Positions 4,588 through 63,011 of a DNA stretch of 64,000 nt are shown one piece after another. The DNA comes from an uncultured Dehalococcoidia bacterium (GTDB lineage: Bacteria; Chloroflexota; Dehalococcoidia; Lucifugimonadales; UBA3495). The stretch lies in assembly GCA_964463525.1 (NCBI GenBank), contig CAYXDE010000003.1, positions 18,407-82,406 of the forward strand. The letters are read 5' to 3'. A program made the translations under genes and the position numbers. Below the pieces are notes generated by a model, which saw only the letters and a list, made by a program, of their open reading frames with translations, had not been told where the DNA came from and made no database searches. Each line of letters opens with the position of its first letter. The first letter of the stretch is position 1.

Positions 4588-6201
4588 TTAGTTCGGTCGG
4601 AGTTTGAAGCGTTGGATCTTGCCGGTTGCGGTCTTTGGCAGTTCCTCGACGAAGTTGAACCACCTGGGGTATTTGTAGCGGGCCAGGCCGTCTTGGCAGT
4701 GCTTCAACAAGTCATCGGCCAGCGAATCTGAGGCGTCCTGGGCGTCGTTCAGCACCACGTACGCTTCCGGCTTGATCAGTTCGTCTGTGTCCGGCCGTCC
4801 CACGATGGCGGCCTCAAGCACTTTAGGGTGCTCGATGAGACGGCTCTCTATCTCCACCGGGGAGCACCAGATCCCGCCCACCTTCAGCATGTCGTCGCTG
4901 CGTCCGCAGTAGACGAAATAACCGTCGGCGTCCTCGAAGTAGGTGTCGCCCGTATTGAGCCAACCGTCCACCATGGTCTCCGCGGTCTTCTGGGGATTGT
5001 TCCAGTAGTGGGTAGACGTGGAATCGCCTTGGATCAGCAGCCTGCCCGCTTCTCCGGTGGGCACGGGCTGGTCTTCGTCATTCAGGATCTTCATCTGGTA
5101 GCCAGGCACGGGTTTGCCGCTGGTGCCCGGCCGGTGGTCGTCCAGCGTGTTGGAGATGAAGATGTGCAGGGCTTCCGTGGACCCGATCCCGTCCAGGATC
5201 AGAGTGTCCGTCTTCTCCCGCCAACGGCGGAAGATGTCGGCCGGCAGGGCCTCACCGGCGGAGACACAGCAGCGGACCGAAGAGAAATCTCTGGCGCCCT
5301 CGTCCAGCGCTCTGAGTTGAGCGGCGTACAGGGTAGGCACGCCGAAATAGATGGTCGGCTTGTGGTCTTCAATGATCTGGAAGGTCATATCGGGAGAGGG
5401 CCGCTGGCTGCTCAGCACGGCGGTGCCGCCCACCCAGAGGGGGAAAGTCATGGCGTTGCCAAGCCCGTAGGCGAAGAACAACTTGGCTGCCGAGAAGCAG
5501 ATGTCCTCTTGGGCCATGCCCAGCGCGTCTTCAGCGTAATGGACGCAGGTGGCCACTATGTCGCGGTGGCGGTGCACGGCGCCCTTGGGACGGCCCGTGG
5601 AGCCGGATGAGTACAGCCAGAAGCACTCGGAGTCCTCAGAGGCAGGCGAAGGTTCCAAGTGCGAGGAATAATCTGCCAGCAGTCCGGACATCCCGCTGGG
5701 ACCCTCGGTGCAGAGGATGAAGCCCGGCTGATGGTCAGAGGCGGCAAGGGCCGGAACGACCTCAGACTGATACTCCGGAGAATAAACCAGACCGGCGCAT
5801 CCAGAATCCTCGATCATGAACCGGTAGTCGTCTGCCCGGAGGAGGGTGTTCAGGGGCACCGGTACGAGACCGGCTTTGATCGCGCCCCAGAAGATGTAGA
5901 AGAACTCAGGACAGTCCTTCACGACCATGAGGATGCGGCTGCCGGGCTCCGGGGCCAAGGAATCAAGCAGATTGCCGCACCGGTTTACCTGCTCAGCCAA
6001 CCGCTGGTAGGTGACCGGCTTCTCCGCCTCAGAGCCGGGAGCGGCGTCGGCGTTGATGATGGCCGGGTAGCCGCCCCGCCCCTCATCCAGGTGCCGGTCG
6101 ATCATGGTGACGGCCACGTTGAAGACCGGCGAGTATTCGATCTGGGACGGAGTGGGCCCGCGGTCCACAGATACGGTATTGGCAGCGATGGGTCCACTCA
6201 T
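4588..6201 (-). CDS. benzoate-CoA ligase family (aryl-CoA ligase, AMP-forming)
   Basis: AMP-binding motif LYSSGSTGRPKG, plus GDTYFEDADGYFVYCGRSDDMLKVGGIWCSPVEIE, which is typical of benzoate/4-hydroxybenzoate-CoA ligases. Lies directly downstream of boxB and boxC. Confidence 0.85.
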   Translation of the reverse strand: MSGPIAANTVSVDRGPTPSQIEYSPVFNVAVTMIDRHLDEGRGGYPAIINADAAPGSEAEKPVTYQRLAEQVNRCGNLLDSLAPEPGSRILMVVKDCPEFFYIFWGAIKAGLVPVPLNTLLRADDYRFMIEDSGCAGLVYSPEYQSEVVPALAASDHQPGFILCTEGPSGMSGLLADYSSHLEPSPASEDSECFWLYSSGSTGRPKGAVHRHRDIVATCVHYAEDALGMAQEDICFSAAKLFFAYGLGNAMTFPLWVGGTAVLSSQRPSPDMTFQIIEDHKPTIYFGVPTLYAAQLRALDEGARDFSSVRCCVSAGEALPADIFRRWREKTDTLILDGIGSTEALHIFISNTLDDHRPGTSGKPVPGYQMKILNDEDQPVPTGEAGRLLIQGDSTSTHYWNNPQKTAETMVDGWLNTGDTYFEDADGYFVYCGRSDDMLKVGGIWCSPVEIESRLIEHPKVLEAAIVGRPDTDELIKPEAYVVLNDAQDASDSLADDLLKHCQDGLARYKYPRWFNFVEELPKTATGKIQRFKLRPN

Positions 6202-6216
6202 GAGACGCGCGCTTGC

Positions 6217-7656
6217 CTAGTTGAACCTGACGTATTCATAGTCCCAAGGCTTGCCGTTGATGCCGCGCACCGGCGGGGCTATCCAGGCGGCGATCTTTCC
6301 CGGCTCGGTCACCCGGTTCATCAGGGTGCCGACGAATGTCTGGTCCTCTTTCGTTGGCAGCCAGTCCCCGTGTTGGGCCTGCCATTCGGCCTCGGTCAGC
6401 ACATCGCCGGACGGCGACACGTTGATGCCCGCCGACGCTCCTATATGGCGGTTGAAGAAGCGGTGGGGCAGGGTGAACCGGAAACCCACGCCGTGGGACT
6501 CCAGCACACCGTTCCAACGTTCCACACCGCGCTGCGAGTCTTTGATGTAGTCATCACGGAGACGCTCATTGACAGCGCTGAGGGCGGGCCTGTCCTCTTG
6601 GATGATGTGGCCGTCTTGGACCTGTAACACCGGCCAGATGCTGTCGTTCAGGCGGTGGTCATCGTCGAGTCTGGTTTCTTGGAAACGGCCCTTGAGACCG
6701 GAGTTGAAGTAGGTGGCGGCGTTGGTGGAAATCTCCTGCCCGAACAGGTCCACGGAGACAGAGAAGTGCAGATTGATGTACTTCTGAACGGTCTCCAGGT
6801 CCACAGCCCCACCTGCGCGCACCATCTTGGGGTCGTCGCTATGGACTTCTTTCATCACCTCACAGGTACGTTGGGCCACGCGCATGATGCCCGTCTCCCC
6901 GACGAACATATGGTGGGCCTCCTCGGTGAGCATGAACTGACAGGTGCGTGCCAGGGGGTCGAATCCCGACTCGGCAAGGGCGGCCAGCTGGTATTTGCCG
7001 TCACGGTCGGTGAAATAGGTGAACATGTAATAGGACAGCCAGTCCGGGGTGGGCTCATTGAACGCGCCCAGTATCCTGGGCTTGTCGGCGTCCCCTGAAT
7101 GACGCTCCAACAACATCTCGGCCTCTTCCCTTCCGTCACGGCCGAAGTAGGCGTGGAGCAGGTAGACCATGGCCCACAGGTGGCGGCCTTCTTCCACGTT
7201 TATCTGGAAGAGGTTGCGCAGGTCGTATAGAGATGGACAAGTGACGCCCAGGTGGCGCTGCTGCTCCACAGAGGCCGGCTCGGTGTCACCCTGGGTGACT
7301 ATCAGGCGGCGCAGTGGGGCGCGGTACTCGCCGGGAACATCCTGCCAAGCCTTTTCACCTTTGTGGTCCCCGAAAGTGATCGTCTTTTCCAAGTCAGGTT
7401 TGGCCAGAAAGATTCCCCACCGGTAATCGGGCATCTTCACGAAATCGAAATTGGCCCAGCCGTCGCGCTCAACGCTGATGGCCGTGCGCAGGTAGACGTC
7501 AAACCCGGTACTGCGGTCCGGGCCCAGCTCCTGCCACCACTTGAGGTAATTGGGCTGCCAGGACTCCAGTGCCCTTTGCAAACGCCGGTTGCTGGCCAGC
7601 CCCACGTTGTTGGGAATGCGCTCTGAGTAATCTATGTTGGAGTGTTCTACAGTCAT
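6217..7656 (-). CDS. boxB: benzoyl-CoA 2,3-epoxidase, oxygenase component BoxB
   Basis: N-terminus IDYSERIPNNVGLASNRRLQRALESWQPNYLKWW. Two diiron ExxH motifs (NVEEGRHLW, LTEEAHHMF). About 479 aa, as expected for BoxB. Confidence 0.9.
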   Translation of the reverse strand: MTVEHSNIDYSERIPNNVGLASNRRLQRALESWQPNYLKWWQELGPDRSTGFDVYLRTAISVERDGWANFDFVKMPDYRWGIFLAKPDLEKTITFGDHKGEKAWQDVPGEYRAPLRRLIVTQGDTEPASVEQQRHLGVTCPSLYDLRNLFQINVEEGRHLWAMVYLLHAYFGRDGREEAEMLLERHSGDADKPRILGAFNEPTPDWLSYYMFTYFTDRDGKYQLAALAESGFDPLARTCQFMLTEEAHHMFVGETGIMRVAQRTCEVMKEVHSDDPKMVRAGGAVDLETVQKYINLHFSVSVDLFGQEISTNAATYFNSGLKGRFQETRLDDDHRLNDSIWPVLQVQDGHIIQEDRPALSAVNERLRDDYIKDSQRGVERWNGVLESHGVGFRFTLPHRFFNRHIGASAGINVSPSGDVLTEAEWQAQHGDWLPTKEDQTFVGTLMNRVTEPGKIAAWIAPPVRGINGKPWDYEYVRFN

Positions 7657-7685
7657 GGTTTACTCGCGTTTTGCCGGGGCTGCAA

Positions 7686-9374
7686 TCACACCCGGCCTTT
7701 GTCGAATTGAGTCTTGGCGCCGGTGCCGTATAGCTGCAGCGCACCCTGGTCGCCCGAGGCGTTGGGACGCTGAAATATCCAGTTCTGCCAGGCGCTGAGG
7801 CGTCCGAATATCTTGCTCTCCATGGTCTCCGGCCCGCCGAACCGCAGGCTGGCTTCCATGCCTGTGAGGGCGTCGGGAGAAAAGCTGGCCCGCTCTTCCA
7901 AGGCAAGCCGGACTTCGTCTTCCCAGTCTATATCGTCTGGTATGAAAGTGACCAACCCAAGATGAAGGGCTGACTGGGCGTCCAGGTCGGTCCCGATGTT
8001 TTCCTGCACAGCCGTAACAGAGTCGGGTTGTCCCAGGAAGCGGCCTTCGAGGCGGGTGATCCCATTTACCATGGGTAGAGGGCCGAAATTCATGCCTGTG
8101 GGCCGGACTGACGCCGGGATGTCGGGATAGTCGTAATCGTCTTCGAAAGTGCCGTCTAGCATGTAGCACCGATCGGCGGCCAGGGCCAGTTCCAAAAGGG
8201 CGCCGGTGAAACAGCTGCCAGGCTCGATGAGTGTCACCAGCGACCGTGAACTGACGTCCAGGCGTTTCAGCGTGCGCTTCAAGTAGAGGGTAATCTCCCT
8301 GACCAGCCAGTCTGAAGCGTGTTCCAGCAGCAGGTCGTCGTAAGCCGCCACGAGAGCGCTGTCGCCCCGGGTCCGGAACACCCAGGTGCCGGACTCGCTC
8401 TCGTTGAGCCTCAGGTGGAGGATGGCATCATCCAACTGCCGGGCCAACGCCAGCGGCCAGAATCTCTCCCCCTGAGCGTGAATGTCCTCAAGGTTCGCCG
8501 GTGGAGGCGTGGTTGGGCCCTCGATCAGGATGTGGGCCACCCCCAACTCCCGGTCCAGCTCTATCTTGACGTGGTCGTAGCTGACCTTATCTGCATCGGT
8601 CTTCCGTTCCAGGGTAGTTAGCTCGATGCCCTTGGCCGAGGCGGGCCGGTCTGACTTACCGGAAAGTTCTGCTGCCATCTCTGATACGGCCTGATCGAAG
8701 GAAGAGCGAGGCGAGAGTTGGTCAACCAGCCTCCATTCCACGGCCCGGCTGCCCCGTACTCCTTCTGAGGTCGTGCAGAGAAAGTCGGCGTGGTCGTGCC
8801 GGACCCCGCGTTTGTCTACCAGGCGTGTCAGTCCGCCGGTGCCTGGCAGAACGGCAAGCAGTGGCAGCTCTGGAAGGGAGACCGTGCTTGAACCGTCGTC
8901 GATCAGCAGGATGTGGTCGCAGGCCAGGGCCAGCTCGTAACCGCCGCCCGCCGCTGGGCCGTTGATGGCGCAGATATAGGTCTGGCCGGAATTCTCCGAG
9001 GCGTCTTCCATGGAATTCCGGGTCTCGTTGGTGAACTTACAGAAATTCACTTTGAAGGCGTGGCCCGACTGGCCCAGCATCTTTATATTGGCGCCGGCGC
9101 AGAAAACCCGGTCTTTGGCGGACGTGACAACCACCGCGCCGACCTCCGGGTGCTCGAACCGCAGCCGTTGAACGGCGTCGTAGAGCTCAATATCCACTCC
9201 CAAATCGTAGGAATTGAGCTTGAGTTCATAGCCTGGGGTCAGAGGTTGGTCTTCTTGGACGTCCAGGCTCAGCCGTGCTATTCGCCCTTCGATCTCCAGC
9301 CGCCAATGTTTGTACTGGGCGGGGCTGGTGGCGAAATCCACAAATACGCTTTTTGCGGTGGGCGTGTCAGCCAT
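7686..9374 (-). CDS. boxC: 2,3-epoxybenzoyl-CoA dihydrolase (benzoyl-CoA-dihydrodiol lyase) BoxC
   Basis: Crotonase-fold N-domain (VFCAGANIKML). About 560 aa with a BoxC-like two-domain layout. The track start at 9407 is a TTG; I prefer the ATG at 9372-9374 (MADTPTAKS...). The start is uncertain by 11 codons. Confidence 0.85.
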   Translation of the reverse strand: MADTPTAKSVFVDFATSPAQYKHWRLEIEGRIARLSLDVQEDQPLTPGYELKLNSYDLGVDIELYDAVQRLRFEHPEVGAVVVTSAKDRVFCAGANIKMLGQSGHAFKVNFCKFTNETRNSMEDASENSGQTYICAINGPAAGGGYELALACDHILLIDDGSSTVSLPELPLLAVLPGTGGLTRLVDKRGVRHDHADFLCTTSEGVRGSRAVEWRLVDQLSPRSSFDQAVSEMAAELSGKSDRPASAKGIELTTLERKTDADKVSYDHVKIELDRELGVAHILIEGPTTPPPANLEDIHAQGERFWPLALARQLDDAILHLRLNESESGTWVFRTRGDSALVAAYDDLLLEHASDWLVREITLYLKRTLKRLDVSSRSLVTLIEPGSCFTGALLELALAADRCYMLDGTFEDDYDYPDIPASVRPTGMNFGPLPMVNGITRLEGRFLGQPDSVTAVQENIGTDLDAQSALHLGLVTFIPDDIDWEDEVRLALEERASFSPDALTGMEASLRFGGPETMESKIFGRLSAWQNWIFQRPNASGDQGALQLYGTGAKTQFDKGRV

Positions 9375-9512
9375 TTCGCTGGGTCCGTGCCGGAACGATT
9401 TGGTCAATCTTATCAGAACCGGCGCGTTCGAGCCGGTGCGTCACAGACAGCGTTGACAGGCGTCAGGGCCGTCAATACACTGCCGGGATACTTCGGAGAT
9501 TGGAGAGCAGCC

Positions 9513-10472
9513 ATGAAATACGGGTTCACGATACCGGGAAGCGGTCCTCTATCAGCCCCCGAGTCCATGAGAGCTCTCGTCCGCAGCGGGGAAGACCTTG
9601 GCTTCGACACTGTGGTCTGTCCCGACCACATCGTCTTCCCCAAAGACATCTCCTCTCCCTATCCCTACAACCCGGAGGCCGTCCACCCGGGGACCGTTGG
9701 TGGGGCGTGCCTAGACCAGCTGACGGTGCTGGCGTTCATCGCCGGCCAGACCACCACTCTGCGCCTTGGCACCAGCGTCATGATCGTGCCGCACCGCAAC
9801 CCCATCGTCGCCGCCAAGGCCCTGGCCACCCTGGACGTTCTTTCCAACGGCCGGGTGACCCTGGGGGTTGGCGCCGGCTGGCTGCGTGAGGAGTTCGAGA
9901 CGCTGGACCTGCCGTCATTCGACGAAAGAGGAGCCGTCACCGACGAATACATCCGGGCGTTCATCGAGCTTTGGACGTCGGACAACCCGGAGTTTGAAGG
10001 CAAGTACATCAATTTCTCGAATATACATTTCCTGCCCAAACCCGTGCAGAAGCCCCACATACCCATCTGGGTGGGCGGGGAGAGCAACCGGGCCATCAGG
10101 CGGACGGCGCGGATGGGCAACGCCTGGCATCCTTTGGGGACCAACCCAGACTTTCCGCTGGGCACCCCGGAGCTGCTCAAGGCGGCCATGGACCGCTTGG
10201 CGGCACGGACCGAGCGTGAAGGACGGGACCCTAAGAGCGTTGAGGTGGCCTTCCGGGTTTCCACCTTTGATCCCAATGCAGACGGCTCAGAGGGGATTCC
10301 CTTCTCCGGTCCGGCGGAAAAGGTTGCCGAGGATATCCGCGCCTACGATGCCCTGGGGGTTACCAACCTGATCTTCGACTTTGGCGGTGTGGCCAGTTCC
10401 AGGGTGGGCGACCCATCGGCGATCATCGCCATGCAAGAGGCGTTGGCGCTACAGGTCTGGCCCAAGGTCTAA
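9513..10472 (+). CDS. LLM-class (luciferase-like) F420-dependent oxidoreductase
   Basis: The real start is ATG 9513 (MKYGFTIPG...) behind a GGAGAG SD. The upstream part of track ORF 8913..10472 is antisense to boxC. LLM hallmarks are present: GFDTVVCPDH, RLGTSVMIVPHRNP, GRVTLGVGAGW. Confidence 0.85.
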   Translation: MKYGFTIPGSGPLSAPESMRALVRSGEDLGFDTVVCPDHIVFPKDISSPYPYNPEAVHPGTVGGACLDQLTVLAFIAGQTTTLRLGTSVMIVPHRNPIVAAKALATLDVLSNGRVTLGVGAGWLREEFETLDLPSFDERGAVTDEYIRAFIELWTSDNPEFEGKYINFSNIHFLPKPVQKPHIPIWVGGESNRAIRRTARMGNAWHPLGTNPDFPLGTPELLKAAMDRLAARTEREGRDPKSVEVAFRVSTFDPNADGSEGIPFSGPAEKVAEDIRAYDALGVTNLIFDFGGVASSRVGDPSAIIAMQEALALQVWPKV

Positions 10473-38517: not shown

Positions 38518-40128
38518 ATGGTTAAGATGACCGGCGGCCAGGCTTTGGCCAAGTCCCTCTACCGCGAGGGTGTCCGGGTGATATTCGGACTGCCCGGAGT
38601 CCAGCTCTACCACATGATGGACGGCCTTTACGATGAGCCGGGCATCCGGTTCATAACTGTCCGTCACGAGCAGGCCACGGCTTACATGGCCGACGGCTAC
38701 GCCCGGGCCAGCGGAGAGGTTGGCACTGCCCTGACGGTGCCTGGACCTGGTCTTCTAAACGCTGCATCGGCATTGTCTACCGCCTACTCAGCATCCTCGC
38801 CGGTGTTGATGGTCACGGGCCAGATCGAGAGGGATGAGATCGGCGGCGACCGCGGCATGCTCCATGAGGTCAACGACCAACTTGACGCCATCGGGCCCGT
38901 GACCAAATGGGCAAAGCGAATCATGGACCCGGCTGAAGTGCCCGACGTAGTGCACGAGGCATTTCACAACCTCAAGAATGGCCGTCCCCGCCCCGTAGAG
39001 ATCGAGATTCCGCCGGAGACGCTTGCCGAGGTCGGCGAGGTTGAGCTATTGGAGCCGGAAGCCCCTCGACGCGTGGCTGCCAGCAAAGAACAGGTAGAGG
39101 CGGCGGCCGCAGCTCTGGCCGGAGCGGCGAAACCCCTGATCTGGGCTGGAGGCGGCGTGATCTCCTCCGAGGGCTCGGACGCGCTGACGAAACTGGCCGA
39201 ACACCTGCAAGCGCCGGTGGTGATGACCGCCGAGGGCAAGGGCGCCATCTCCGACCATCACCCCCTGAGCCTGGGAGCGCTTTGGCTGCGGAACGACACC
39301 ATCGCCAGGAAGGAATTCGGCCATGACGTTATCCTGGCCGTGGGCACCAGATTGGTCACGTCCCAGTGGCTGGACGGGCAACAGGTCATCCAGATCGACG
39401 TTGATCCCGAAGAGATCGGCCGCCATTACGAGAACACCATGCGAGTGGAAGGCGATGCCAAACTCACCATGCAGGACCTGCTAACCGCCCTGGCCGCCAA
39501 GGCCCCAGCCAAGGAAGACCGGACGGCGGAGGTAGCCGCTCAGAAGGCCCAGCGGTCTGACGACATCATCAAGGTCGAGCCCCAGGGCGAACTGCTGGAG
39601 GCGGTCCGGAGGGCCATGCCCGAAGACGGAATCGTAATCTCAGGCATGACTCAGTTGGGCTACTATAGCCGGGCCCACTACCCGGTCTACGAGCCGCGCA
39701 CGTTCATCACCTCTTCCTACTCAGGAAACCTGGGCTATGCCTACCCCACCGCTCTGGGCGCCAAAGTCGCCCAGCCGGACAAGGCCGTGGTCTGCTTGTC
39801 GGGAGACGGCGGCTTCATGTTCAACTCCCAGGAGATGTCCACCGCCGTGGCGCACGACATCAACGTGGTTGTGGTGGTGTTTAACGACAACGCCTACGGC
39901 AACGTGAAACGCGACCAGATGAACCAGTTCAGCGGCCGGACCATCGGCGTGGAACTGCAAAACCCCGACTTCGTGAAGCTGGCCGAGGCCTACGGCGCCA
40001 GGGGCTTCGTTGCCAACGGTCCGGCCGAGCTTGAGTCCACTCTAAAGGAGGCGTTGGCCATGGACGCCCCGGTGCTGATCGAAGTGCCTGTCGGCCCCAT
40101 GCCCTCGCCGTTCTTCCGGCCGTCGTAG
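38518..40128 (+). CDS. thiamine-diphosphate-binding enzyme (acetolactate synthase large-subunit-like)
   Basis: 536 aa. N-terminal Pyr domain (GVRVIFGLPGVQLYHMMDGL...RHEQATAYMADGYAR). C-terminal ThDP motif GDGGFMFNSQE...FNDNAYGN. Confidence 0.85.
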   Translation: MVKMTGGQALAKSLYREGVRVIFGLPGVQLYHMMDGLYDEPGIRFITVRHEQATAYMADGYARASGEVGTALTVPGPGLLNAASALSTAYSASSPVLMVTGQIERDEIGGDRGMLHEVNDQLDAIGPVTKWAKRIMDPAEVPDVVHEAFHNLKNGRPRPVEIEIPPETLAEVGEVELLEPEAPRRVAASKEQVEAAAAALAGAAKPLIWAGGGVISSEGSDALTKLAEHLQAPVVMTAEGKGAISDHHPLSLGALWLRNDTIARKEFGHDVILAVGTRLVTSQWLDGQQVIQIDVDPEEIGRHYENTMRVEGDAKLTMQDLLTALAAKAPAKEDRTAEVAAQKAQRSDDIIKVEPQGELLEAVRRAMPEDGIVISGMTQLGYYSRAHYPVYEPRTFITSSYSGNLGYAYPTALGAKVAQPDKAVVCLSGDGGFMFNSQEMSTAVAHDINVVVVVFNDNAYGNVKRDQMNQFSGRTIGVELQNPDFVKLAEAYGARGFVANGPAELESTLKEALAMDAPVLIEVPVGPMPSPFFRPS

Positions 40129-40228: not shown

Positions 40229-40777
40229 ATGACCACCACCGAATCAGCGAAATTGATAGTCCTAGACCCTACCGCCGCTCCCAGGGAGATGGTCCAGGCC
40301 ATGGCCCCGGTGTTGGGCGGCCTGGGCGGGCAGTCTGTGGGTTTCTTATGGAACAGCAAGCCCAACGGCGACCTGCTCTTCGAGCGCCTTGAGAAACTGC
40401 TTAGAGAGAAATACGAGATCTCGGACGTGGTCTATAAGCGCAAGCCCACAGCCTCCATCCCGGCCAAGGATGAGGTTATCGACGAACTGGCTGGCTCTGT
40501 TCAGGCGGTGATCGTAGGGCTGGCGGATTGAGGGTCCTGCACGTCGTGGAGTATCCACGATGCAGTAGAACTGGAGAAGCGGGGCGTCCGCACCGTGGTG
40601 GTAGGCACCGACCGCTTCAAGCGTCTGGGCGACGTTGAGCGGAAGTCCCTGGGCATGCCTGAGCTGACCATGGCCATCGCGGAGCATCCCTTGGGCGGGC
40701 TGCAGGCCGAGAGATTGCTGGCCAAGGCCGACGGTCTGTTGGAGCAAGTGGTCGAGGGGCTGACCGGCCGCCGTTAG
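40229..40777 (+). CDS. UGSC-motif protein with in-frame TGA at 40529-40531 (putative selenocysteine, residue 101 of 182)
   Basis: Track ORFs 40229..40531 and 40595..40777 share one frame with no other stop between them. Read-through gives ...VIVGLAD-U-GSC-TSWSIHDAVELEKRGVRTVVVGTDRF...IAEHPLGG..., a UxxC redox motif. A strong hairpin starts 5 nt after the TGA. Confidence 0.75.
40537..40565 (+). promoter_or_regulatory. putative bacterial SECIS element for the UGSC gene
   Basis: Outer stem CUGCA/UGCAG (40537-41 / 40561-65), a CG bulge, inner stem UCGUGGA/UCCACGA (40544-50 / 40554-60), and apical GUA. 12 bp in total. Confidence 0.65.
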
Positions 40778-40802: not shown

Positions 40803-40829
40803 AAGGGCGGCCCATGACGGGCCGCCCTT
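40803..40829 (+). terminator. perfect 11-bp GC-rich stem-loop after the UGSC gene
   Basis: AAGGGCGGCCC-ATGAC-GGGCCGCCCTT followed by CTCATT (weak T-run). Partial terminator or mRNA stabiliser. Confidence 0.55.
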
Positions 40830-40848
40830 CTCATTAGGGAGGAATCAT

Positions 40849-41880
40849 TTGGCTGACCTGATCTCAGACCGGCTGGAAGTAGACGACGATTTCGAGGCGG
40901 TACAGGAGCTCTATCTGGAACGGGGCTGGACCGACGGTCTGCCCATCGTGCCGCCCACCACTGAGCGGGTGGAGGCGATGCTGGCGGCCACTCCCCTTAG
41001 CCCGCAAGACATCATCGGCGAGATACCGCCCAATTGGGGCTCGGCCACCGTCGAGAAGCTGGCCGTAAACGCGGTCATGGCCGGGTGTAAACCGGAGTAC
41101 CTGCCTGTCGTGATCGCGGCCGTTGAGGCCATGTGCGACGACGTCTTCAACCTGTACGCCATCCAGGCCACCACTCACCCGTGCGCACCGTTGATAATCG
41201 TCAACGGCCCCATCTGCGATGAGCTGGGTCTGCACGGAGGTTCGGGCGCATACGGCCCAGGCTGGCAGCCCAACGCCACCATCGGGCGCGCGGTGAGGCT
41301 GGTGCAGCTGAACGTTGGCGGCGCCCATCCAGGAGTGGGAGACATGTCTACACAGGGCGCGCCGTCCAAGTACACCTACTGCGTGGCCGAGAACGAGGAA
41401 GCCAACCCGTGGGAAGCCCTGCACATCGAACGCGGCTTCACGCCCGACCAGAGCACGGTAACCGTGCTGGCAGGCGAGCCGCCCCACAACATCAACGACC
41501 ACTCCGGGAGCAGCGCGGAAGACATCCTGACCATCATCGCCGGGGCCATCTCCATAACCGGCGCCAACAACGCCTACACCGGCGGGGAGACCCTGTTGGC
41601 CTTGGGGCCCGAGCATGCGGCGACCATCGCGGGAGATGGGTTCGGCAAGAAGGAGATCAGGGAATGGCTGCACCAGAACGCCCGCATCCCCTTGGAGCGC
41701 TACACCCACGAGACCATGCTGGAGCGTTTCCAAAAGATTCCCGACGGCCCCGTGCCCATGGTGGTGGACCCGGACCTGCTCATGATCATCGTCCTGGGCG
41801 GCCCCGGCAAGCACTCATCCTGGGTGCCCACCTTTGGCGGTTCAACCCACTCGGCGACGCGGGAGATACGGAGGGTGTAG
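40849..41880 (+). CDS. conserved-looking hypothetical protein, Cys-rich, function unknown
   Basis: TTG start 6 nt after GGGAGG. 343 aa with protein-like composition, including GWTDGLPIVPPT, NAVMAGCKPEY and IQATTHPCAP. I cannot assign a family. Confidence 0.7.
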   Translation: MADLISDRLEVDDDFEAVQELYLERGWTDGLPIVPPTTERVEAMLAATPLSPQDIIGEIPPNWGSATVEKLAVNAVMAGCKPEYLPVVIAAVEAMCDDVFNLYAIQATTHPCAPLIIVNGPICDELGLHGGSGAYGPGWQPNATIGRAVRLVQLNVGGAHPGVGDMSTQGAPSKYTYCVAENEEANPWEALHIERGFTPDQSTVTVLAGEPPHNINDHSGSSAEDILTIIAGAISITGANNAYTGGETLLALGPEHAATIAGDGFGKKEIREWLHQNARIPLERYTHETMLERFQKIPDGPVPMVVDPDLLMIIVLGGPGKHSSWVPTFGGSTHSATREIRRV

Positions 41881-45807: not shown

Positions 45808-47196
45808 CTAACGATTCGGCTTATCCAGTTGTCGCTCCTCGCTCGTTTCCAGATTCAGATAGTTGTGGAACCTTTCCGCGTCTACGGTCATGCTCAGCTG
45901 GCCGACCAGCTCCCCATCGCGGAATAGGTCACCTTCTTTTGTCCCGTCGTCCTGGAAACGAATCTCGAACTCGTAACCCGACGCTTCGCTGACGCCGGTC
46001 ACCGTCCCTGAGATTGCCCTGCCCAAGTCGTCGTATTGGTCGAGCAGGATATCGACTTCGAATGGAATCTTGCCGTCGGTTGGGTGGTTATAGGCTACCG
46101 AGCCGTAGCCGGTTTGCGGCCCGAATGTAGGCTTGGACCCGCCCGGAGGGATGGCCATCTCGCGTGTTTCGTAGACCGTTCCCTCCAAACTACCTGCAAG
46201 TTCCGCCTCGATGTCCATTCTCGCCAAGTTATCGGCAGAAGTTGGCTCACTATTGGCCATCCATCCTGACATGTTGGATTCCTCAAAGGCGTCAACCACC
46301 ATCGATGGCAAGCCCAGAGAATTGAGCTTGTCCCTGAACCCGGCTACGACCTCTGCCTCGATGGCGGAGGAAGCAGTCCATATCTGATAGTCCATCAGCG
46401 ATCGGGCCGGTAGCTGCAAGGCCTTCATCTGGTCCCATAGCACTTCATTCCAGCCTTCGGTAGTGGCGAGACGGCGGGGATCGCCCGCACCCGTCACCAA
46501 GCCCAGCATAACCTGTTGTAGACCCACTTCCGGGCCTGCAGAGTCAGGCAGCCGAACGAAGTAGTCTTTGTCGAGGGTTCTTAGATCTTTGCTTGCTAAC
46601 AACCCCGAGGTTACAGCTTCACCGGCGCCCGTCGTGAAGGCAACTTGAGGTTTGGCCCCGGCTGGGCAAGCGCCTGGTGGGGCGTCGATCTTGCCCGTGT
46701 CGGAAAGGGGCTCGAAGAAACCGGCGGGTATCCCGGCAGCAGTCAAGAGCCCAGGATTCCATGAGATATCAAATGTCGATGTTTCTCCGTCGCCAGCTAT
46801 AAACCACGGCGGCAGATAAGCGAGTGCATCGGCGGAGGCCGAGGCTTCCACCATTGCCTCCGTCCCTTGACCAAACACGGATTGCATGGCGTCAATGTCC
46901 CCCACGAGCCACGCCAAGGACTCGGCTAGGTCCGCTTCCTTGCTGCGGGCCGGTCCAGCCTGTGTCGTGACCATGGTCGTGGCGCTGTCCGTTAGCGTCG
47001 AAGAATCTGAGGACTCAACCAACGTGCTTGGCTGGGCGGTGTCGCCCGTCTGGGCTTCAGGCTGGCTATCCGAGCCTCCGCAAGCGCCCAACACTATTGC
47101 GGTTGCCAAGGCCAAGAACCCGATGATCCAGAGCCTGGGACATCGAGAGATGAGGCCTGCATCCTTTCTTGGGTCGATATGTAGTAAGTGGTTCAT
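45808..47196 (-). CDS. lipoprotein of unknown function
   Basis: Start trimmed to ATG 47196 (MNHLLHID...) behind GGAGG. Lipobox VLGACGG and a Ser/Thr-rich linker. About 460 aa with no recognisable domain. Confidence 0.7.
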   Translation of the reverse strand: MNHLLHIDPRKDAGLISRCPRLWIIGFLALATAIVLGACGGSDSQPEAQTGDTAQPSTLVESSDSSTLTDSATTMVTTQAGPARSKEADLAESLAWLVGDIDAMQSVFGQGTEAMVEASASADALAYLPPWFIAGDGETSTFDISWNPGLLTAAGIPAGFFEPLSDTGKIDAPPGACPAGAKPQVAFTTGAGEAVTSGLLASKDLRTLDKDYFVRLPDSAGPEVGLQQVMLGLVTGAGDPRRLATTEGWNEVLWDQMKALQLPARSLMDYQIWTASSAIEAEVVAGFRDKLNSLGLPSMVVDAFEESNMSGWMANSEPTSADNLARMDIEAELAGSLEGTVYETREMAIPPGGSKPTFGPQTGYGSVAYNHPTDGKIPFEVDILLDQYDDLGRAISGTVTGVSEASGYEFEIRFQDDGTKEGDLFRDGELVGQLSMTVDAERFHNYLNLETSEERQLDKPNR

Positions 47197-47766
47197 ATTT
47201 GCCTCCGAGGCACAGTTCTTGACGGTCAATCTTGGGAGCGTTGCACAAAGTTCTGAGGAATATCCCGTTGTTGAACGCCGCAGCCGCTGGAACAAACCCG
47301 CGAGTCAACCGGGATTCCGAACTCCGTCGCCGAGCCTTCAAGGGGAGAAGCGAGCTTCAAGAGCTTTTCTCCTTAGTTGTGAATCCGGCCTCTGGTGTCA
47401 GTACTGCGGACTCATGGGTAGGCTACCTGCGGCATCGCATGCAGCGGTCCCTAGACCGACGCATGATGCAAGGACGGACATCCGAAGCAGTCCTGTGGTC
47501 ACAACTGGTCCCTCAAGCAACCGATTCCCTCCAGAGGGACCCCAAACGGTGCCCAATTCTTACTCTATTACCCTAGGCCCGAATCCGTATGATGCGAAGC
47601 ACTCATAGAGTGGGATGCAACTGATTCATTTTTGGAGTCAATATCTGGATCCCCCCGGCGCCTCCCGCATCGTCCAGAACACCGGCCGGATAGACGACCG
47701 GCAGGCGGTAAGATTAAAGCCGCCTAGAATACCCGCCATTGCGGTTTCATGGCAACGGCATTCCTT

Positions 47767-49785: not shown

Positions 49786-49860
49786 TGGTCGGGGTGATAG
49801 GATTTGAACCTACGGCCTCTGCGTCCCGAACGCAGCGCGCTACCCCTGCGCTACACCCCG
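49786..49860 (-). tRNA. tRNA-Pro (anticodon CGG), CCA-encoded
   Basis: A cloverleaf folds by hand: acceptor CGGGGTG/CACCCCG, D stem GCGC/GCGC, anticodon stem CTGCG/CGCAG with loop TTCGGGA, T arm GTAGG-TTCAAAT-CCTAT, then ACCA. Confidence 0.9.
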
Positions 49861-50014: not shown

Positions 50015-50614
50015 CTACTGGCTTAGCATCTCCAGGGTCTTTTCTTCGAGGACGCTGCTGTTAAGGGCGCCGGTCCATTTGTTGAATATCTCACCGTTAC
50101 TACCTATGAAAACGGTGGTGGGCATCCCCAGGACCTGATAGTCCCTGATCACGTCCGAGTCTGAAGTGAATCCTGCAGGATAGGTCACTGACAACTCAGC
50201 AAGCAGTTCCTTGGCATCGTCTTGGTTTCCCAGGCCCGTGAATTGGCCGAGATCAACACCAAGCAACAATGCCCGGTCTTTGAATTTCTCATTGAACTCC
50301 TGAAGGTCAGGCATCTCAGCCCGGCAGGGAGGGCACAGTCCGGCCCAGAAGTTGAGCACGATGGGCCTCTCGCCGGTCAGACTGTGGAGACTGACCTCTT
50401 CCCCGCCGACTACGTCTTGGCCCTGGAACATGGTGACTGTGAAGTCGGGTGCGCGATCGCCGTTCTGGTCGTCCTGAGTCAGTGTCTCAGAAATGCTGCC
50501 GCTGCTGCTGCAAGCGATGGCCGCCACAGTCAATATCATCGCCAAGGGCAGGAGCCAGCGAAGCCTGCTGTTATGCCTGCCTGAGTGCCTATTCCGTTCT
50601 GAAATACCCGTCAA
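50015..50614 (-). CDS. TlpA/ResA-family thiol-disulfide oxidoreductase lipoprotein
   Basis: Lipobox AAIACSS. Thioredoxin-fold motif NFWAGLCPPCRAEMP. Confidence 0.85.
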   Translation of the reverse strand: MTGISERNRHSGRHNSRLRWLLPLAMILTVAAIACSSSGSISETLTQDDQNGDRAPDFTVTMFQGQDVVGGEEVSLHSLTGERPIVLNFWAGLCPPCRAEMPDLQEFNEKFKDRALLLGVDLGQFTGLGNQDDAKELLAELSVTYPAGFTSDSDVIRDYQVLGMPTTVFIGSNGEIFNKWTGALNSSVLEEKTLEMLSQ

Positions 50615-50759: not shown

Positions 50760-54314
<3,555 letters not shown>

Positions 54315-57599: not shown

Positions 57600-58439
57600 T
57601 TGGTAATAGACGCTCATTGCCACATCCTGCCGCCATCTTTTCGTGACCGCAGAGAAGAGATCGCCCAGCGTGACGCCACGTTCGCGGAACTGTTGTCCAA
57701 TCCCAACGCGTCCATCGCCACCGCAGACGACCTGCTGGCGGCCATGGACCAGGCCGGCGTTGACCGCGCCGTGGTCATGGGCATGGGGTGGACCGACCCA
57801 GACGTGGCAACGGAAGCCAACGATTACATCATCCAAGCCGTGGCGGATAACCCCGACCGCCTCAGCGGTTTCTGCTCCGTGAACCCGGCTTGGGGAGAGC
57901 AGGCCTACAACGAGGCGAAACGGTGTATCGCCGCCGGGCTGGCCGGCATCGGCGAACTCCACGCGGACACCCAGGGATTCGACATCGCCAGCGTCTCGGA
58001 GATGGCGCCGGTCATGGAACTGGCCCGCGCTGACGCTCTACCCCTTCTCGTCCATGCGTCCGAGCCGGTGGGCCATCAATATCCCGGCAAGGGCAGCACC
58101 ACCCCCGAAAAACTGTACCGTTTCATCCAAAATTTCCCTGGAAACCCCATCATCTGCGCCCACTGGGGCGGTGGGCTGCCGTTCTACTCCCTGATGCCGG
58201 AGGTCAAAGAGTCTCTCAAGTTGGTCTACTTCGACTCTGCCGCTTCGCCCTTCTTATACCGGCCAGAAGTCTTTTCCGCCGTGGCGGAGCTTGCCGGGGC
58301 CGGAAAGGTGCTCTTCGCCAGCGATTACCCACTGATGGACATGTCCCGGCCTCTGGACCAGGCCCGGAGCATGGGTCTGCCCCCTGATGTTGAGGAACGC
58401 CTGCTTTCGCGAAACACGGCCAGATTGCTGCGCTTATGA
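57600..58439 (+). CDS. amidohydrolase-family (TIM-barrel metal-dependent) hydrolase
   Basis: TTG start. N-terminus VIDAHCHILPP (HxH metal motif). 279 aa. Confidence 0.8.
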   Translation: MVIDAHCHILPPSFRDRREEIAQRDATFAELLSNPNASIATADDLLAAMDQAGVDRAVVMGMGWTDPDVATEANDYIIQAVADNPDRLSGFCSVNPAWGEQAYNEAKRCIAAGLAGIGELHADTQGFDIASVSEMAPVMELARADALPLLVHASEPVGHQYPGKGSTTPEKLYRFIQNFPGNPIICAHWGGGLPFYSLMPEVKESLKLVYFDSAASPFLYRPEVFSAVAELAGAGKVLFASDYPLMDMSRPLDQARSMGLPPDVEERLLSRNTARLLRL

Positions 58440-61565: not shown

Positions 61566-63011
61566 ATGTCCTCTGTCTTAGTCTTCGTTTTCGACGGTCT
61601 TCAGCCGGCCCAGGTCAATCCACGGTTGATGCCGAACCTTGCTGCCTTTGCGGCTGGTGGGGTGACCTTTGCCAACCATCATGCGGTATTTCCGTCGGTC
61701 ACCCGTGTGAACTGCTCCAGCATGGTCACCGGTATGGACCCGGGAGGACACGGCCTGGCCGGGAACAGGCTCCTGATCAGAGATTTCGACCCGGACAACG
61801 CCATGGGAGCCATGGAACCCGAGTTGGCCAAGGTTGCCAGCGCCGGAGTGCCAGTGCTGCTGGCGCCAACTCTGGCCGAGATTCTGGAACGTCACGGCAA
61901 AGAATATGTGGCCATCGGCGTCGGCACCAGCGGAAACGCGTATCTCCATAATCCAACTGCCGAAGATTCAGGCGGCGCGACCATCCACCCAACCTTCGCC
62001 CTGCCTGGAGACCTTCACGAATCGTTGATCGACCGGTTCGGCCCGTGGCCGGAAGAGCGCGTGCCCAACACGTCCAGATTGGCCCATGCAACTCGGATCA
62101 TGACTGAGTACGTGCTCCCCGAACGAGACCCGGCCGTGGCGCTGATCTGGTCGTCGGAGCCGGACAAAGCCCAGCATGCTGCCGGGGTTGGTTCCAGCCT
62201 CTCCGACACCGCCATCAAAGAGGCGGACGGGCAGTTTGGCGATGTGCTGCGCTGGCTGCAAGAAACTGGCCGGGCCGCAGAGACAGACGTTATCGTTGCG
62301 TCCGACCACGGTTACTCGACCATCTCCGGTAACGTCAGCGTTGAATCCTTGGTGAGGGAAGCAGGCTTTTCGCTGGGAGGAGAGCCGGGCGGGGTGGTTG
62401 TTGCCCAGAACGGCGGCGCAGCCCTCTTTTACACTCCTCCAGGTGACTTGGAAACTGCCCAGCGCTTAGCTGAATGGCTCATGGCCCAGCCATGGTGCGG
62501 CACCGTTACAGCTTCGGATTCTGTCGCAGGTATCCCTGGGACTCTGCCAGCCTCATTGGTGGGCAACCAGGGCCCGCGTGCTCCCGAATTGACAGTCTCG
62601 TTCCGCTGGGATTCCGCGGCCAACGAAGCCGGGTATGCGGGCACGGCGTACGCAACCTACGGAGAGCCGGGTACGGGCCAACACGGGTCTATGAGCCGGC
62701 ATGAGATGAACAACATCTTATTCGCGGGCGGCCCCAGCTTCAGATCGAAACTCGAACTGGAGATTCCGTCAGGAAATCTGGACTTGGCGCCCACCATCCT
62801 CAGGATCCTGGGCATCTCAGGCGGTCCGGACATGCACGGGAGGGTCCTGGAAGAAGCCTTGGCCGACGGGCCTGAGGCTGCCGGTGTGGACTGGTCCACC
62901 GGATCACATCACGCCGAGGTTCATCTGGGCAGCGGGCGCTACCGGCAACAGATAAAGATATCCACGGTGGGCGCGACATCATACGTCGATGAGGGCAACC
63001 GGGAGACGTGA
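61566..63011 (+). CDS. alkaline-phosphatase-superfamily protein (nucleotide pyrophosphatase/phosphodiesterase-like)
   Basis: N-terminus VLVFVFDGLQP, FPSVTRVN (Thr nucleophile region) and VASDHGY. Confidence 0.75.
   Translation: MSSVLVFVFDGLQPAQVNPRLMPNLAAFAAGGVTFANHHAVFPSVTRVNCSSMVTGMDPGGHGLAGNRLLIRDFDPDNAMGAMEPELAKVASAGVPVLLAPTLAEILERHGKEYVAIGVGTSGNAYLHNPTAEDSGGATIHPTFALPGDLHESLIDRFGPWPEERVPNTSRLAHATRIMTEYVLPERDPAVALIWSSEPDKAQHAAGVGSSLSDTAIKEADGQFGDVLRWLQETGRAAETDVIVASDHGYSTISGNVSVESLVREAGFSLGGEPGGVVVAQNGGAALFYTPPGDLETAQRLAEWLMAQPWCGTVTASDSVAGIPGTLPASLVGNQGPRAPELTVSFRWDSAANEAGYAGTAYATYGEPGTGQHGSMSRHEMNNILFAGGPSFRSKLELEIPSGNLDLAPTILRILGISGGPDMHGRVLEEALADGPEAAGVDWSTGSHHAEVHLGSGRYRQQIKISTVGATSYVDEGNRET

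What the first reader, a model, noticed from the sequence alone, without database searches (positions are those of the whole stretch)
40229..40777. In-frame TGA creates a U-G-S-C redox motif with a strong downstream hairpin: probable selenoprotein split in two by the ORF track
Seen in sequence:
- ORFs 40229..40531 and 40595..40777 are in the same frame, and the only stop between them is TGA at 40529-40531.
- Read-through gives GLAD-[TGA]-GSC-TSWSIHDAVELEKRGVRTVVVGTDRF...MAIAEHPLGG. This places the TGA as the first position of a UxxC motif.
- Five nt downstream sits a 12-bp bulged hairpin (40537-40565) with a GUA apex.
- TGA is a genuine stop elsewhere in this window (for example the genes ending at 58439, 59583 and 20268), so this is site-specific recoding and not a variant genetic code.

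Established knowledge:
- Bacterial Sec insertion needs a SECIS hairpin directly 3' of the UGA, and Sec typically replaces a redox Cys in CxxC-like motifs.
- From memory, unverified here: a 'UGSC-containing' family of unknown function was reported in marine-metagenome selenoproteome surveys. The motif context U-G-[ST]-C-T ... E-x-[KR]-G-[IV] ... HPLG also resembles the Sec region of glycine/betaine reductase protein B.

Inference: this is a 182-aa selenoprotein whose function is unknown.
Basis: partly seen in the sequence, partly recalled or inferred. Interest (0 to 1): 0.85.

Follow-up and report, generated by a model that had tools for sequence, protein, structure and literature searches.

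The report
Known UGSC selenoprotein, with conserved partner
The in-frame TGA really does encode selenocysteine, in a member of the already described "UGSC" selenoprotein family; its function is unknown, but here it proves to be coupled, and often fused, to an uncharacterised 340-residue protein encoded just downstream.

Summary
Window 40229-40777 is one 182-codon gene, interrupted only by TGA at 40529-40531.

With U replaced by C, the product matches NCBIfam NF041046 "UGSC family (seleno)protein" above its curated cut-off. It also matches Pfam PF24696 end to end.

In 71 homologous copies from 67 genome loci (35-93% identity), the codon at that column is always TGA. The frame stays open for at least 50 further codons with a coding-type substitution pattern. 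The hairpin after the TGA is kept, with compensatory changes. Cys-form homologues (DCGSC) exist and lack the hairpin.

This is therefore a genuine selenoprotein gene that ORF callers split. The family has been in the literature since 2005-2008, so it is not new.

New context found here:
- An AlphaFold model of a Cys homologue is flavodoxin-like, not thioredoxin-like.
- The downstream gene 40849-41880 has no Pfam or NCBIfam family and no convincing structural match in the PDB. It follows UGSC in 65 of 69 loci.
- That gene is fused to UGSC, in either order, in about a third of its 150 best-scoring representative homologues. It is fused or adjacent to a thioredoxin-reductase-like flavoprotein in others.

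The likely role is the Sec redox subunit of an uncharacterised reductase.

The parts
40229..40777 (+). UGSC-family selenoprotein gene: 182 codons, ATG 40229, Sec codon 40529-40531, TAG stop 40775-40777. An AGGTGA ribosome-binding site lies 5 nt upstream of the ATG.
   Evidence: NF041046 scores 135.8 bits against a cut-off of 125. PF24696 scores 167 bits over residues 11-179. tblastn matches run collinearly over residues 1-182 in 69 loci.
40529..40531 (+). UGA read as selenocysteine, the first residue of the U-G-S-C motif.
   Evidence: TGA sits at this column in all 71 copies from the 67 loci that cover it. Cys (TGC/TGT) occupies it in Cys-form homologues P0119-P0137.
40533..40572 (+). SECIS-type hairpin. 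Core 9-bp stem at 40542-40562, apical loop G-U-A at 40551-40553 (G23 and U24 counted from the U of UGA). A less well conserved lower stem lies at 40533-40540 / 40565-40572.
   Evidence: Fold energy -18.4 kcal/mol. 91% of cells paired, with compensatory changes in 5 pairs. Third-codon-position entropy is 0.76 here against 1.38 further downstream. Cys-form genes lack it: core energy -4.4 to -5.8 against -12.8 kcal/mol.
40804..40828 (+). GC-rich 10-bp hairpin followed by a U-rich tail, in the 71-nt spacer between the UGSC stop and the start of the partner gene. It looks like a terminator or attenuator.
   Evidence: The spacer folds at -33.9 kcal/mol, z = -2.58. The stem is conserved, with a variable loop, in close relatives L003-L007, L009, L011, L014 and L015. 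The consensus terminator scan did not call it.
40849..41880 (+). Partner gene: 343 aa, TTG start, GGGAGG ribosome-binding site at 40837-40842. It belongs to an uncharacterised family with conserved D29, C80, N142, R147, C178 and E181.
   Evidence: No Pfam or NCBIfam hit. Lies directly downstream of UGSC in 65 of 69 loci. Fused to UGSC or to a TrxR-like domain in many representatives. Residue conservation.

Best explanation
Window 40229-40777 is a single gene for a 182-residue selenoprotein of the known UGSC family.

Shown or strongly supported:
- UGA at 40529-40531 is decoded as selenocysteine. The hairpin that starts 4 nt downstream has the layout of a bacterial SelB-binding SECIS element; SelB binding itself was not tested.
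- ORF callers therefore report only the first 100 residues.

Inferred from an AlphaFold model of a Cys-form homologue with 43% identity:
- The protein is a five-stranded alpha/beta flavodoxin-like domain.
- U-G-S-C sits in the loop after strand 3 and in the first turn of helix 3. This is the classic position for a redox-active selenenylsulfide/selenol-thiol pair.

Inferred from gene order and domain fusions:
- UGSC does not act alone. It is the Sec (or Cys) redox subunit of a two-part enzyme.
- The other part is the 343-residue protein encoded directly downstream (40849-41880).
- Where a dedicated donor is encoded, electrons come from NAD(P)H through a low-molecular-weight thioredoxin-reductase-like flavoprotein with a CxxC motif.
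- They pass to the UxxC of UGSC, and then to the partner. The partner carries two conserved cysteines, an invariant arginine and a near-invariant glutamate.

The substrate is unknown. Neighbouring genes point to catabolism of organic acids or acyl-CoA compounds.
For: Identity as a UGSC selenoprotein:
- Matches to NF041046 and PF24696 span the TGA.
- 69 genome loci align collinearly across it, and TGA is invariant in 71 copies.
- No stop occurs within 50 codons after the TGA in 69 distinct sequences. Entropy by codon position is 0.60 / 0.37 / 1.23.
- The SECIS hairpin covaries. Cys-form genes lack it.
- Nearly all database homologues are 100-residue truncations that end at ...GLAD. Full-length forms with DCGSC also exist.

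Fold:
- AlphaFold2 model of P0119: pLDDT 88.7, pTM 0.83, (beta-alpha)x5.
- The best PDB matches are lumazine synthase, flavodoxin and PurE, at TM 0.4-0.6. No thioredoxin-fold protein appears among the 50 matches listed.

Coupling to the partner:
- The partner follows UGSC in 65 of 69 loci, across Chloroflexota, Deltaproteobacteria, Armatimonadota, Desulfatiglandales and Burkholderiales.
- Of the partner's 150 best-scoring representative homologues, 17 carry a complete N-terminal Cys-form UGSC domain.
- About 31 begin with the C-terminal part of UGSC; these are Sec-form fusions cut at the TGA by the gene caller.
- 4 have the reverse order and end exactly at the residue before U.
- L076 reads through as a single 531-residue UGSC(Sec)-partner fusion with the same hairpin.

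Electron donor:
- Cys-form operons in L070, L072, L073 and L074 run TrxR-like (CAMC/CTMC motif), UGSC, then the partner, with DUF6282 between UGSC and the partner in L070 and L072 only.
- P0271 is a partner-TrxR fusion. In L077 and L078 it lies directly after a Sec-form UGSC gene.

Conserved partner residues: C80 94%, C178 92%, R147 100%, E181 99%.
Against: - No selA, selB, selD or tRNA-Sec was seen in the window or the fetched loci. Sec decoding is therefore inferred from conservation and not from the machinery.
- The window's own protein could not be modelled. The fold comes from a homologue with 43% identity.
- None of the 69 Sec-form genome loci has a TrxR-like gene within 6 kb. The dedicated donor is seen only in some clades, and in this organism the reductant is unknown.
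- The partner model is of moderate quality (pLDDT 75.9), and no structural relative was found. No chemistry can be assigned.
- Apart from the partner, the neighbourhood is variable.
- No experiment of any kind supports the electron path.
Confidence: 0.85

Rival explanations
1. The TGA is a true stop, a nonsense mutation or a sequencing error. The locus would then be a pseudogene, or two unrelated short ORFs.
For: Gene callers uniformly report a 100-residue product. TGA is a normal stop elsewhere in the window.
Against: The same TGA is present in 71 independent copies at 35-93% protein identity. Purifying selection acts on the 81 codons after it. A covarying hairpin follows it. Family models span it.
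Confidence: 0.02
2. UGSC is a free-standing, general thiol-disulfide oxidoreductase with a thioredoxin-like fold, as the literature has assumed. On this reading its position next to the 343-residue gene is incidental.
For: The UxxC motif is typical of thioredoxin-like selenoproteins. [quoted passage not shown]
Against: The model is a (beta-alpha)x5 flavodoxin-like sandwich, and no thioredoxin-fold protein appears among the 50 PDB matches listed. The partner is adjacent in 65 of 69 loci. It is fused to UGSC in both orders in about 35% of the 150 best-scoring representatives.
Confidence: 0.07
3. UGSC is the catalytic selenoprotein, not an electron shuttle, as with GrdB and PrdB. Its Sec attacks a substrate held by the partner, which plays the role of GrdE or PrdA, and reductively cleaves a C-X bond. 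The resulting Se-S bond is then reduced by a thioredoxin-type system.
For: - Three parts (a TrxR-like donor, a small UxxC selenoprotein and a larger subunit) mirror the logic of glycine and proline reductase.
- Several family-conserved loops in UGSC (WNxKPN, DUGSC, HPLGG) suggest a pocket, not a bare redox surface.
- The partner has an invariant Arg suited to binding a carboxylate.
Against: HMMER detects no similarity of UGSC to GRDB (PF07355), or of the partner to any Pfam family, even at E<=10. There is no evidence of a pyruvoyl-forming cleavage site. The substrate is unknown.
Confidence: 0.25

Closest known systems
UGSC family (seleno)protein: NCBIfam NF041046, Pfam PF24696; the 'UGSC-containing protein' of Zhang & Gladyshev
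   Same: - Full-length match above the curated cut-off.
- U-G-S-C at the family's motif position.
- The Sec form predominates over the Cys form.
- The source is marine or aquatic; the close relatives are SAR202/Dehalococcoidia MAGs.
   Different: Nothing material; this is a member. The literature gives no function and guesses a thioredoxin-like fold, which the model here does not support.
Glycine/sarcosine/betaine reductase and D-proline reductase (GrdA, GrdB, PrdB with the thioredoxin system)
   Same: - A Sec-Cys pair (UxxC) on one subunit.
- A second, larger subunit.
- Electrons supplied by a thioredoxin-reductase-type flavoprotein.
- Embedded in catabolic gene clusters.
   Different: There is no detectable sequence homology to GRDB, GrdA or GrdE/PrdA. 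The partner belongs to no described family. No thioredoxin gene lies between TrxR and UGSC in the operons seen. This is an analogy of logic only.
Escherichia coli fdhF-type bacterial SECIS element
   Same: - The hairpin begins a few nucleotides after UGA.
- G and U lie in the apical loop at positions 23 and 24 from the U of UGA. This matches the fdhF numbering as I recall it from the literature; I did not test it here.
- The element lies inside the coding sequence.
   Different: - The sequence is different.
- There is no bulged U in the upper stem.
- No Rfam model matches.
- SelB binding is untested.

Membership tests
UGSC family (seleno)protein (NF041046 / PF24696) | Score above the curated cut-off of the family model, over its full length | tested here: met
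   NF041046: 135.8 bits against a cut-off of 125, profile positions 2-146 of 147. PF24696: 167.1 bits against 25, positions 2-171 of 172.
UGSC family (seleno)protein (NF041046 / PF24696) | U/C-G-S-C motif at the conserved column | tested here: met
   D-U-G-S-C-T-S-W in the window. The same column is TGA in 71 copies and Cys in P0119-P0137.
Bacterial selenoprotein gene | In-frame UGA with conserved coding sequence on both sides | tested here: met
   Codon-position entropy is 0.87/0.73/1.53 upstream and 0.60/0.37/1.23 downstream. No stop occurs within 50 codons in 69 sequences.
Bacterial selenoprotein gene | SECIS stem-loop immediately 3' of the UGA, conserved in structure | tested here: met
   91% of cells paired, 5 pairs with double changes, slid controls at 21-60%. 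Cys-form genes lack it.
Bacterial selenoprotein gene | Homologues with Cys in place of Sec | tested here: met
   P0119-P0137 carry DCGSC. Cys-form fusions P0269, P0272 and P0372.
Bacterial selenoprotein gene | selA, selB, selD and tRNA-Sec in the same genome | not testable with these tools
   None in the 64-kb window or the fetched loci.
Thioredoxin-fold oxidoreductases | Thioredoxin fold: a mixed beta-sheet with the CxxC motif at the N-terminus of helix 1 | tested here: not met
   The AlphaFold model of the Cys homologue is a parallel (beta-alpha)x5 fold. Foldseek's top hits are flavodoxin-like folds. This rests on a model and on a homologue with 43% identity.
GrdB/PrdB selenoprotein B (Pfam PF07355 GRDB) | Sequence match to the GRDB model | tested here: not met
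   Pfam at E<=10 returns only PF24696, for the window protein and for P0119. A more distant, fold-level relationship could not be tested, because no GrdB or PrdB structure appeared among the PDB matches.

The most novel reading that the evidence does not exclude
UGSC and the unnamed 340-residue family form a previously undescribed NAD(P)H-dependent selenoenzyme system, in some lineages together with a dedicated thioredoxin-reductase-like flavoprotein and DUF6282. It would be a reductase whose catalytic subunit has no recognisable fold relative. Its logic parallels glycine and proline reductase, but it evolved independently and is widespread in marine SAR202 and other bacteria.
Probability: 0.45. 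Interest if true: 0.65.

Novelty: already known. Interest (0 to 1): 0.3.

Why it matters
The gene itself is routine. It is one more copy of a selenoprotein family that was catalogued two decades ago and now has curated models. It is also another example of gene callers truncating selenoproteins: nearly every database homologue is a 100-residue stub.

What may matter is the context. UGSC is one of the most abundant selenoprotein families in ocean metagenomes, and it still has no function. The partner family (about 6,000 representative clusters at E<=0.001), the two-way fusions and the thioredoxin-reductase link give a concrete, testable hypothesis. They also define a set of proteins to express together.

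Tried and rejected
- Sequence searches of the PDB with UGSC (single sequence and profile) and with the partner (single sequence and profile) found nothing meaningful.
- Foldseek of the partner model gave only weak hits at TM<=0.3: class I fumarate hydratase, Toblerone-fold hydrolases and PurM-like proteins. I do not build on them.
- Rfam has no model matching the hairpin, either at gathering scores or at E<=10.
A Cys-form homologue was used instead.
- The 'Unknown_1' domain that the GOS paper reports fused to UGSC could not be compared with the partner. The supplementary alignment is held only as an image. Equating the two is therefore plausible but unverified.
- A scan of the window for other in-frame TGA candidates with Cys-containing motifs gave only off-frame noise, apart from this locus.
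- A search for a conserved third gene across the 69 loci found only a TPP-dependent enzyme in about half of them, at low identity outside the close clade. It is not treated as part of the system.
- No paper mentions DUF6282.

Full report
**1. The observation**

Window 40229-40531 and 40595-40777 lie in one frame, and the only stop between them is TGA at 40529-40531. Read-through gives 182 residues containing ...IVGLAD-U-GSC-TSWSIHDAVELEKRG...HPLGG....

RNA folding of 40529-40580 gives a hairpin at 40533-40572. Its MFE is -18.4 kcal/mol, z = -2.46, and 5 of 200 shuffles fold as well. It has a 9-bp core stem (40542-40562) and a G-U-A apex. TGA ends 8 of 21 confidently identified genes in the window, so this is not a reassigned code. 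The hairpin is not compelling by energy alone.

**2. What it is**

With U written as C, the product matches NCBIfam NF041046 "UGSC family (seleno)protein" at 135.8 bits (curated cut-off 125). It matches Pfam PF24696 "UGSC" at 167 bits over residues 11-179. Both matches run straight across the TGA.

A search of 5.8 billion proteins returned 236 relatives. Nearly all of the 120 listed are 100-residue products that stop at ...GLAD. These are the same gene truncated by gene callers, mostly from Dehalococcoidia, SAR202 or Chloroflexota MAGs. Two listed hits, and 17 more found from them, are full-length Cys forms with DCGSC.

A scan of one genome per species recovered 69 loci whose tblastn matches cover residues 1-182 collinearly. 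In every locus that covers the column, the codon is TGA: 71 copies, at 35-93% identity, including Deltaproteobacteria, Armatimonadota, Desulfatiglandales and Burkholderiales.

Downstream of the TGA, none of the 69 distinct sequences has a stop within 50 codons. Variability by codon position is 0.60/0.37/1.23 bits, the signature of a translated sequence.

**3. The recoding signal**

The core stem is formed by the codons for T-S-W-S-I-H-D.

- On 63 distinct sequences, 91% of cells pair, against 21-60% when the 3' partners are slid.
- The seven inner pairs are essentially always paired.
- Pair 18-30 changes on both sides five times (G-C to A-U or C-G) without ever breaking.
- Third-position variability is 0.76 bits in the first 12 codons after the TGA and 1.38 bits beyond. 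Synonymous sites are therefore constrained.
- Cys-form genes encode nearly the same peptide (CGSCTSYVIHD) but lack the hairpin. Their MFE is -3.2 to -11.2 kcal/mol, and the core structure scores -4.4 to -5.8 against -12.8 kcal/mol in the window.
- The loop G and U lie at positions 23 and 24 from the U of UGA. From my recollection of the E. coli fdhF literature, these are the positions of the SelB-contacting loop bases. This is a recalled parallel, not a test.
- No Rfam model matches.
- No tRNA-Sec or sel gene is in the window or the fetched loci, which says nothing at this scale.

**4. What is already known**

The "UGSC-containing protein" was listed among the major selenoprotein families of the Global Ocean Sampling data, with 255 Sec forms and 21 Cys forms. 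It was said to have a "likely" thioredoxin-like fold, and it was noted as fused in some reads to a domain called Unknown_1 (PMC2398784). It was described as "a selenoprotein of unknown function" (PMC1976440). A 2026 review lists it under NF041046 among families whose functions "remain largely uncharacterized" (PMC13188914). The finding is therefore a correct rediscovery.

**5. Fold**

The window's own sequence could not be submitted. An AlphaFold2 model of the Cys homologue P0119 (43% identical, built with a 24-row alignment) is confident: pLDDT 88.7, pTM 0.83. It consists of five beta-alpha units.

C98-G-S-C101, which aligns with U101-G-S-C104 of the window protein, lies between strand 3 and the first turn of helix 3. 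Foldseek against the PDB gives only generic flavodoxin-like matches (lumazine synthase, flavodoxin, PurE; TM 0.4-0.6). No thioredoxin-fold protein appears among the 50 matches listed. Sequence and profile searches of the PDB find nothing. The thioredoxin-fold assumption is therefore not supported, with the caveat that this rests on a model.

**6. The partner**

The next gene is 40849-41880 (343 aa, TTG start, GGGAGG ribosome-binding site).

- It has no Pfam or NCBIfam match, even at E<=10.
- It has no PDB relative by sequence or profile.
- Its AlphaFold model (pLDDT 75.9, pTM 0.81) has no convincing structural match.
- It lies directly downstream of UGSC in 65 of 69 loci, including those from other phyla, at 42-95% identity. 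It is more conserved than UGSC itself.
- The family is large: 5,989 representative clusters at E<=0.001 and 1,577 at E<=1e-30.

Among its 150 best-scoring representative homologues:

| Architecture | Count | Examples |
|---|---|---|
| Complete N-terminal UGSC domain, Cys form | 17 | P0269, P0272, P0372 |
| Begins with the C-terminal part of UGSC at residue 1 | about 31 | P0258 |
| Partner followed by the N-terminal half of UGSC, ending exactly at the residue before U | 4 | P0261, P0270, P0306, P0386 |

The last two architectures are what a gene caller leaves of a Sec-form fusion. L076 proves this for one case. Read-through of its TGA gives a single 531-residue UGSC(Sec)-partner protein with the same hairpin. 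For P0270, the missing C-terminal half is called as the next 78-residue gene. Fusion in both orders is strong evidence that the two proteins work together.

**7. Electron donor**

In the Cys-form loci L070, L072, L073 and L074, the gene before UGSC is a roughly 310-residue Pyr_redox_2 protein with the thioredoxin-reductase-type motif C-A-M-C-D-G or C-T-M-C-D-G. The order is TrxR-like, UGSC, then the partner, with DUF6282 between UGSC and the partner in L070 and L072 only.

P0271 is a partner-TrxR fusion. In L077 and L078 it follows a Sec-form UGSC gene with overlapping stop and start. None of the 69 Sec-form genome loci has such a gene within 6 kb, so in this window's organism the reductant is not identified.

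Across 147 representatives, the partner keeps C80 (94%), C178 (92%), R147 (100%), E181 (99%), D29 (98%) and N142 (97%).

**8. Mechanism proposed**

Shown: Sec recoding, family membership, and tight genetic coupling of UGSC with the partner.

Inferred: UGSC is the redox-active Sec-Cys subunit of a two-part reductase. Electrons flow from NAD(P)H to a TrxR-like flavoprotein (where encoded), then to UxxC, then to the partner's Cys pair or active site.

Flanking genes vary, but they are repeatedly acyl-CoA ligases and transferases, enoyl-CoA hydratases, amidohydrolases, and TRAP or TctA transporters. In this window they are a TPP enzyme, glyoxalase-fold proteins and hydrolases. This suggests an organic-acid substrate.

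A GrdB-like role, in which Sec itself attacks the substrate, cannot be excluded. It has no sequence support.

**9. Verdict**

This is a genuine selenoprotein gene of a known family. The partner and TrxR association is the part worth following up.

Noticed in passing
window 40849-41880 (+): A 343-residue protein with no Pfam or NCBIfam family and no convincing structural match in the PDB. It belongs to a large family (about 6,000 representative clusters) that is genetically coupled, and often fused, to UGSC.
   Followed up: yes
window 40804-40828 (+): A GC-rich 10-bp hairpin with a U-rich tail in the UGSC-partner spacer. It is conserved, with a variable loop, in close relatives (L003-L007, L009, L011, L014, L015). 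It could be a partial terminator or attenuator that sets the ratio of the two products. Other clades have spacers from 10 nt to about 500 nt.
   Followed up: partly
L001, L002, L008, L010, L012, L013, about 6550-6990: In these close relatives a segment of about 350-400 nt separates UGSC from the partner gene, where the window has 71 nt. Its nature was not examined.
   Followed up: no
window 4588-9407 (-): Benzoate-CoA ligase (TIGR02262), BoxB (TIGR03225, 842 bits) and BoxC (TIGR03222, 898 bits). Together these are the aerobic benzoyl-CoA epoxidase (box) pathway.
   Followed up: partly
window 38518-40128 (+): A TPP-dependent enzyme of the PRK08266 subfamily lies directly upstream of UGSC. A TPP enzyme lies within 6 kb of UGSC in 34 of 69 loci, but it is only 27-36% identical outside the close clade, so it may not be orthologous.
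   Followed up: partly
L070 4223-5077, L072 2477-3277, L076 4317-5183: DUF6282 (with an HVH...D motif, possibly amidohydrolase-like) recurs next to the UGSC-partner module in three unrelated metagenomic loci. It is absent from the window and from the 69 genome loci. No paper mentions it.
   Followed up: partly
L029, L064, L063, L014: Some genomes carry two copies. L029 and L064 have two UGSC-partner pairs, L063 has a second Sec-form UGSC at 11970, and L014 has a second, divergent partner at 8866-9921 (-).
   Followed up: no
P0304, P0325 (representative proteins, 717 and 741 aa): Proteins made of two tandem partner-type domains with no UGSC domain.
   Followed up: no
window 50015-50614 (-): A ResA/TlpA-like thiol:disulfide oxidoreductase, located between tRNA-Pro(CGG) at 49786-49860 and mfd at 50760-54314. 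It has a faint match to the Sec-containing WAxxUGC family model, but here it is a continuous ORF.
   Followed up: no
window 45808-47295 (-), 57600-58439 (+), 61566-63011 (+): Three long ORFs (495, 279 and 481 aa) with no NCBIfam match at the thresholds used.
   Followed up: no
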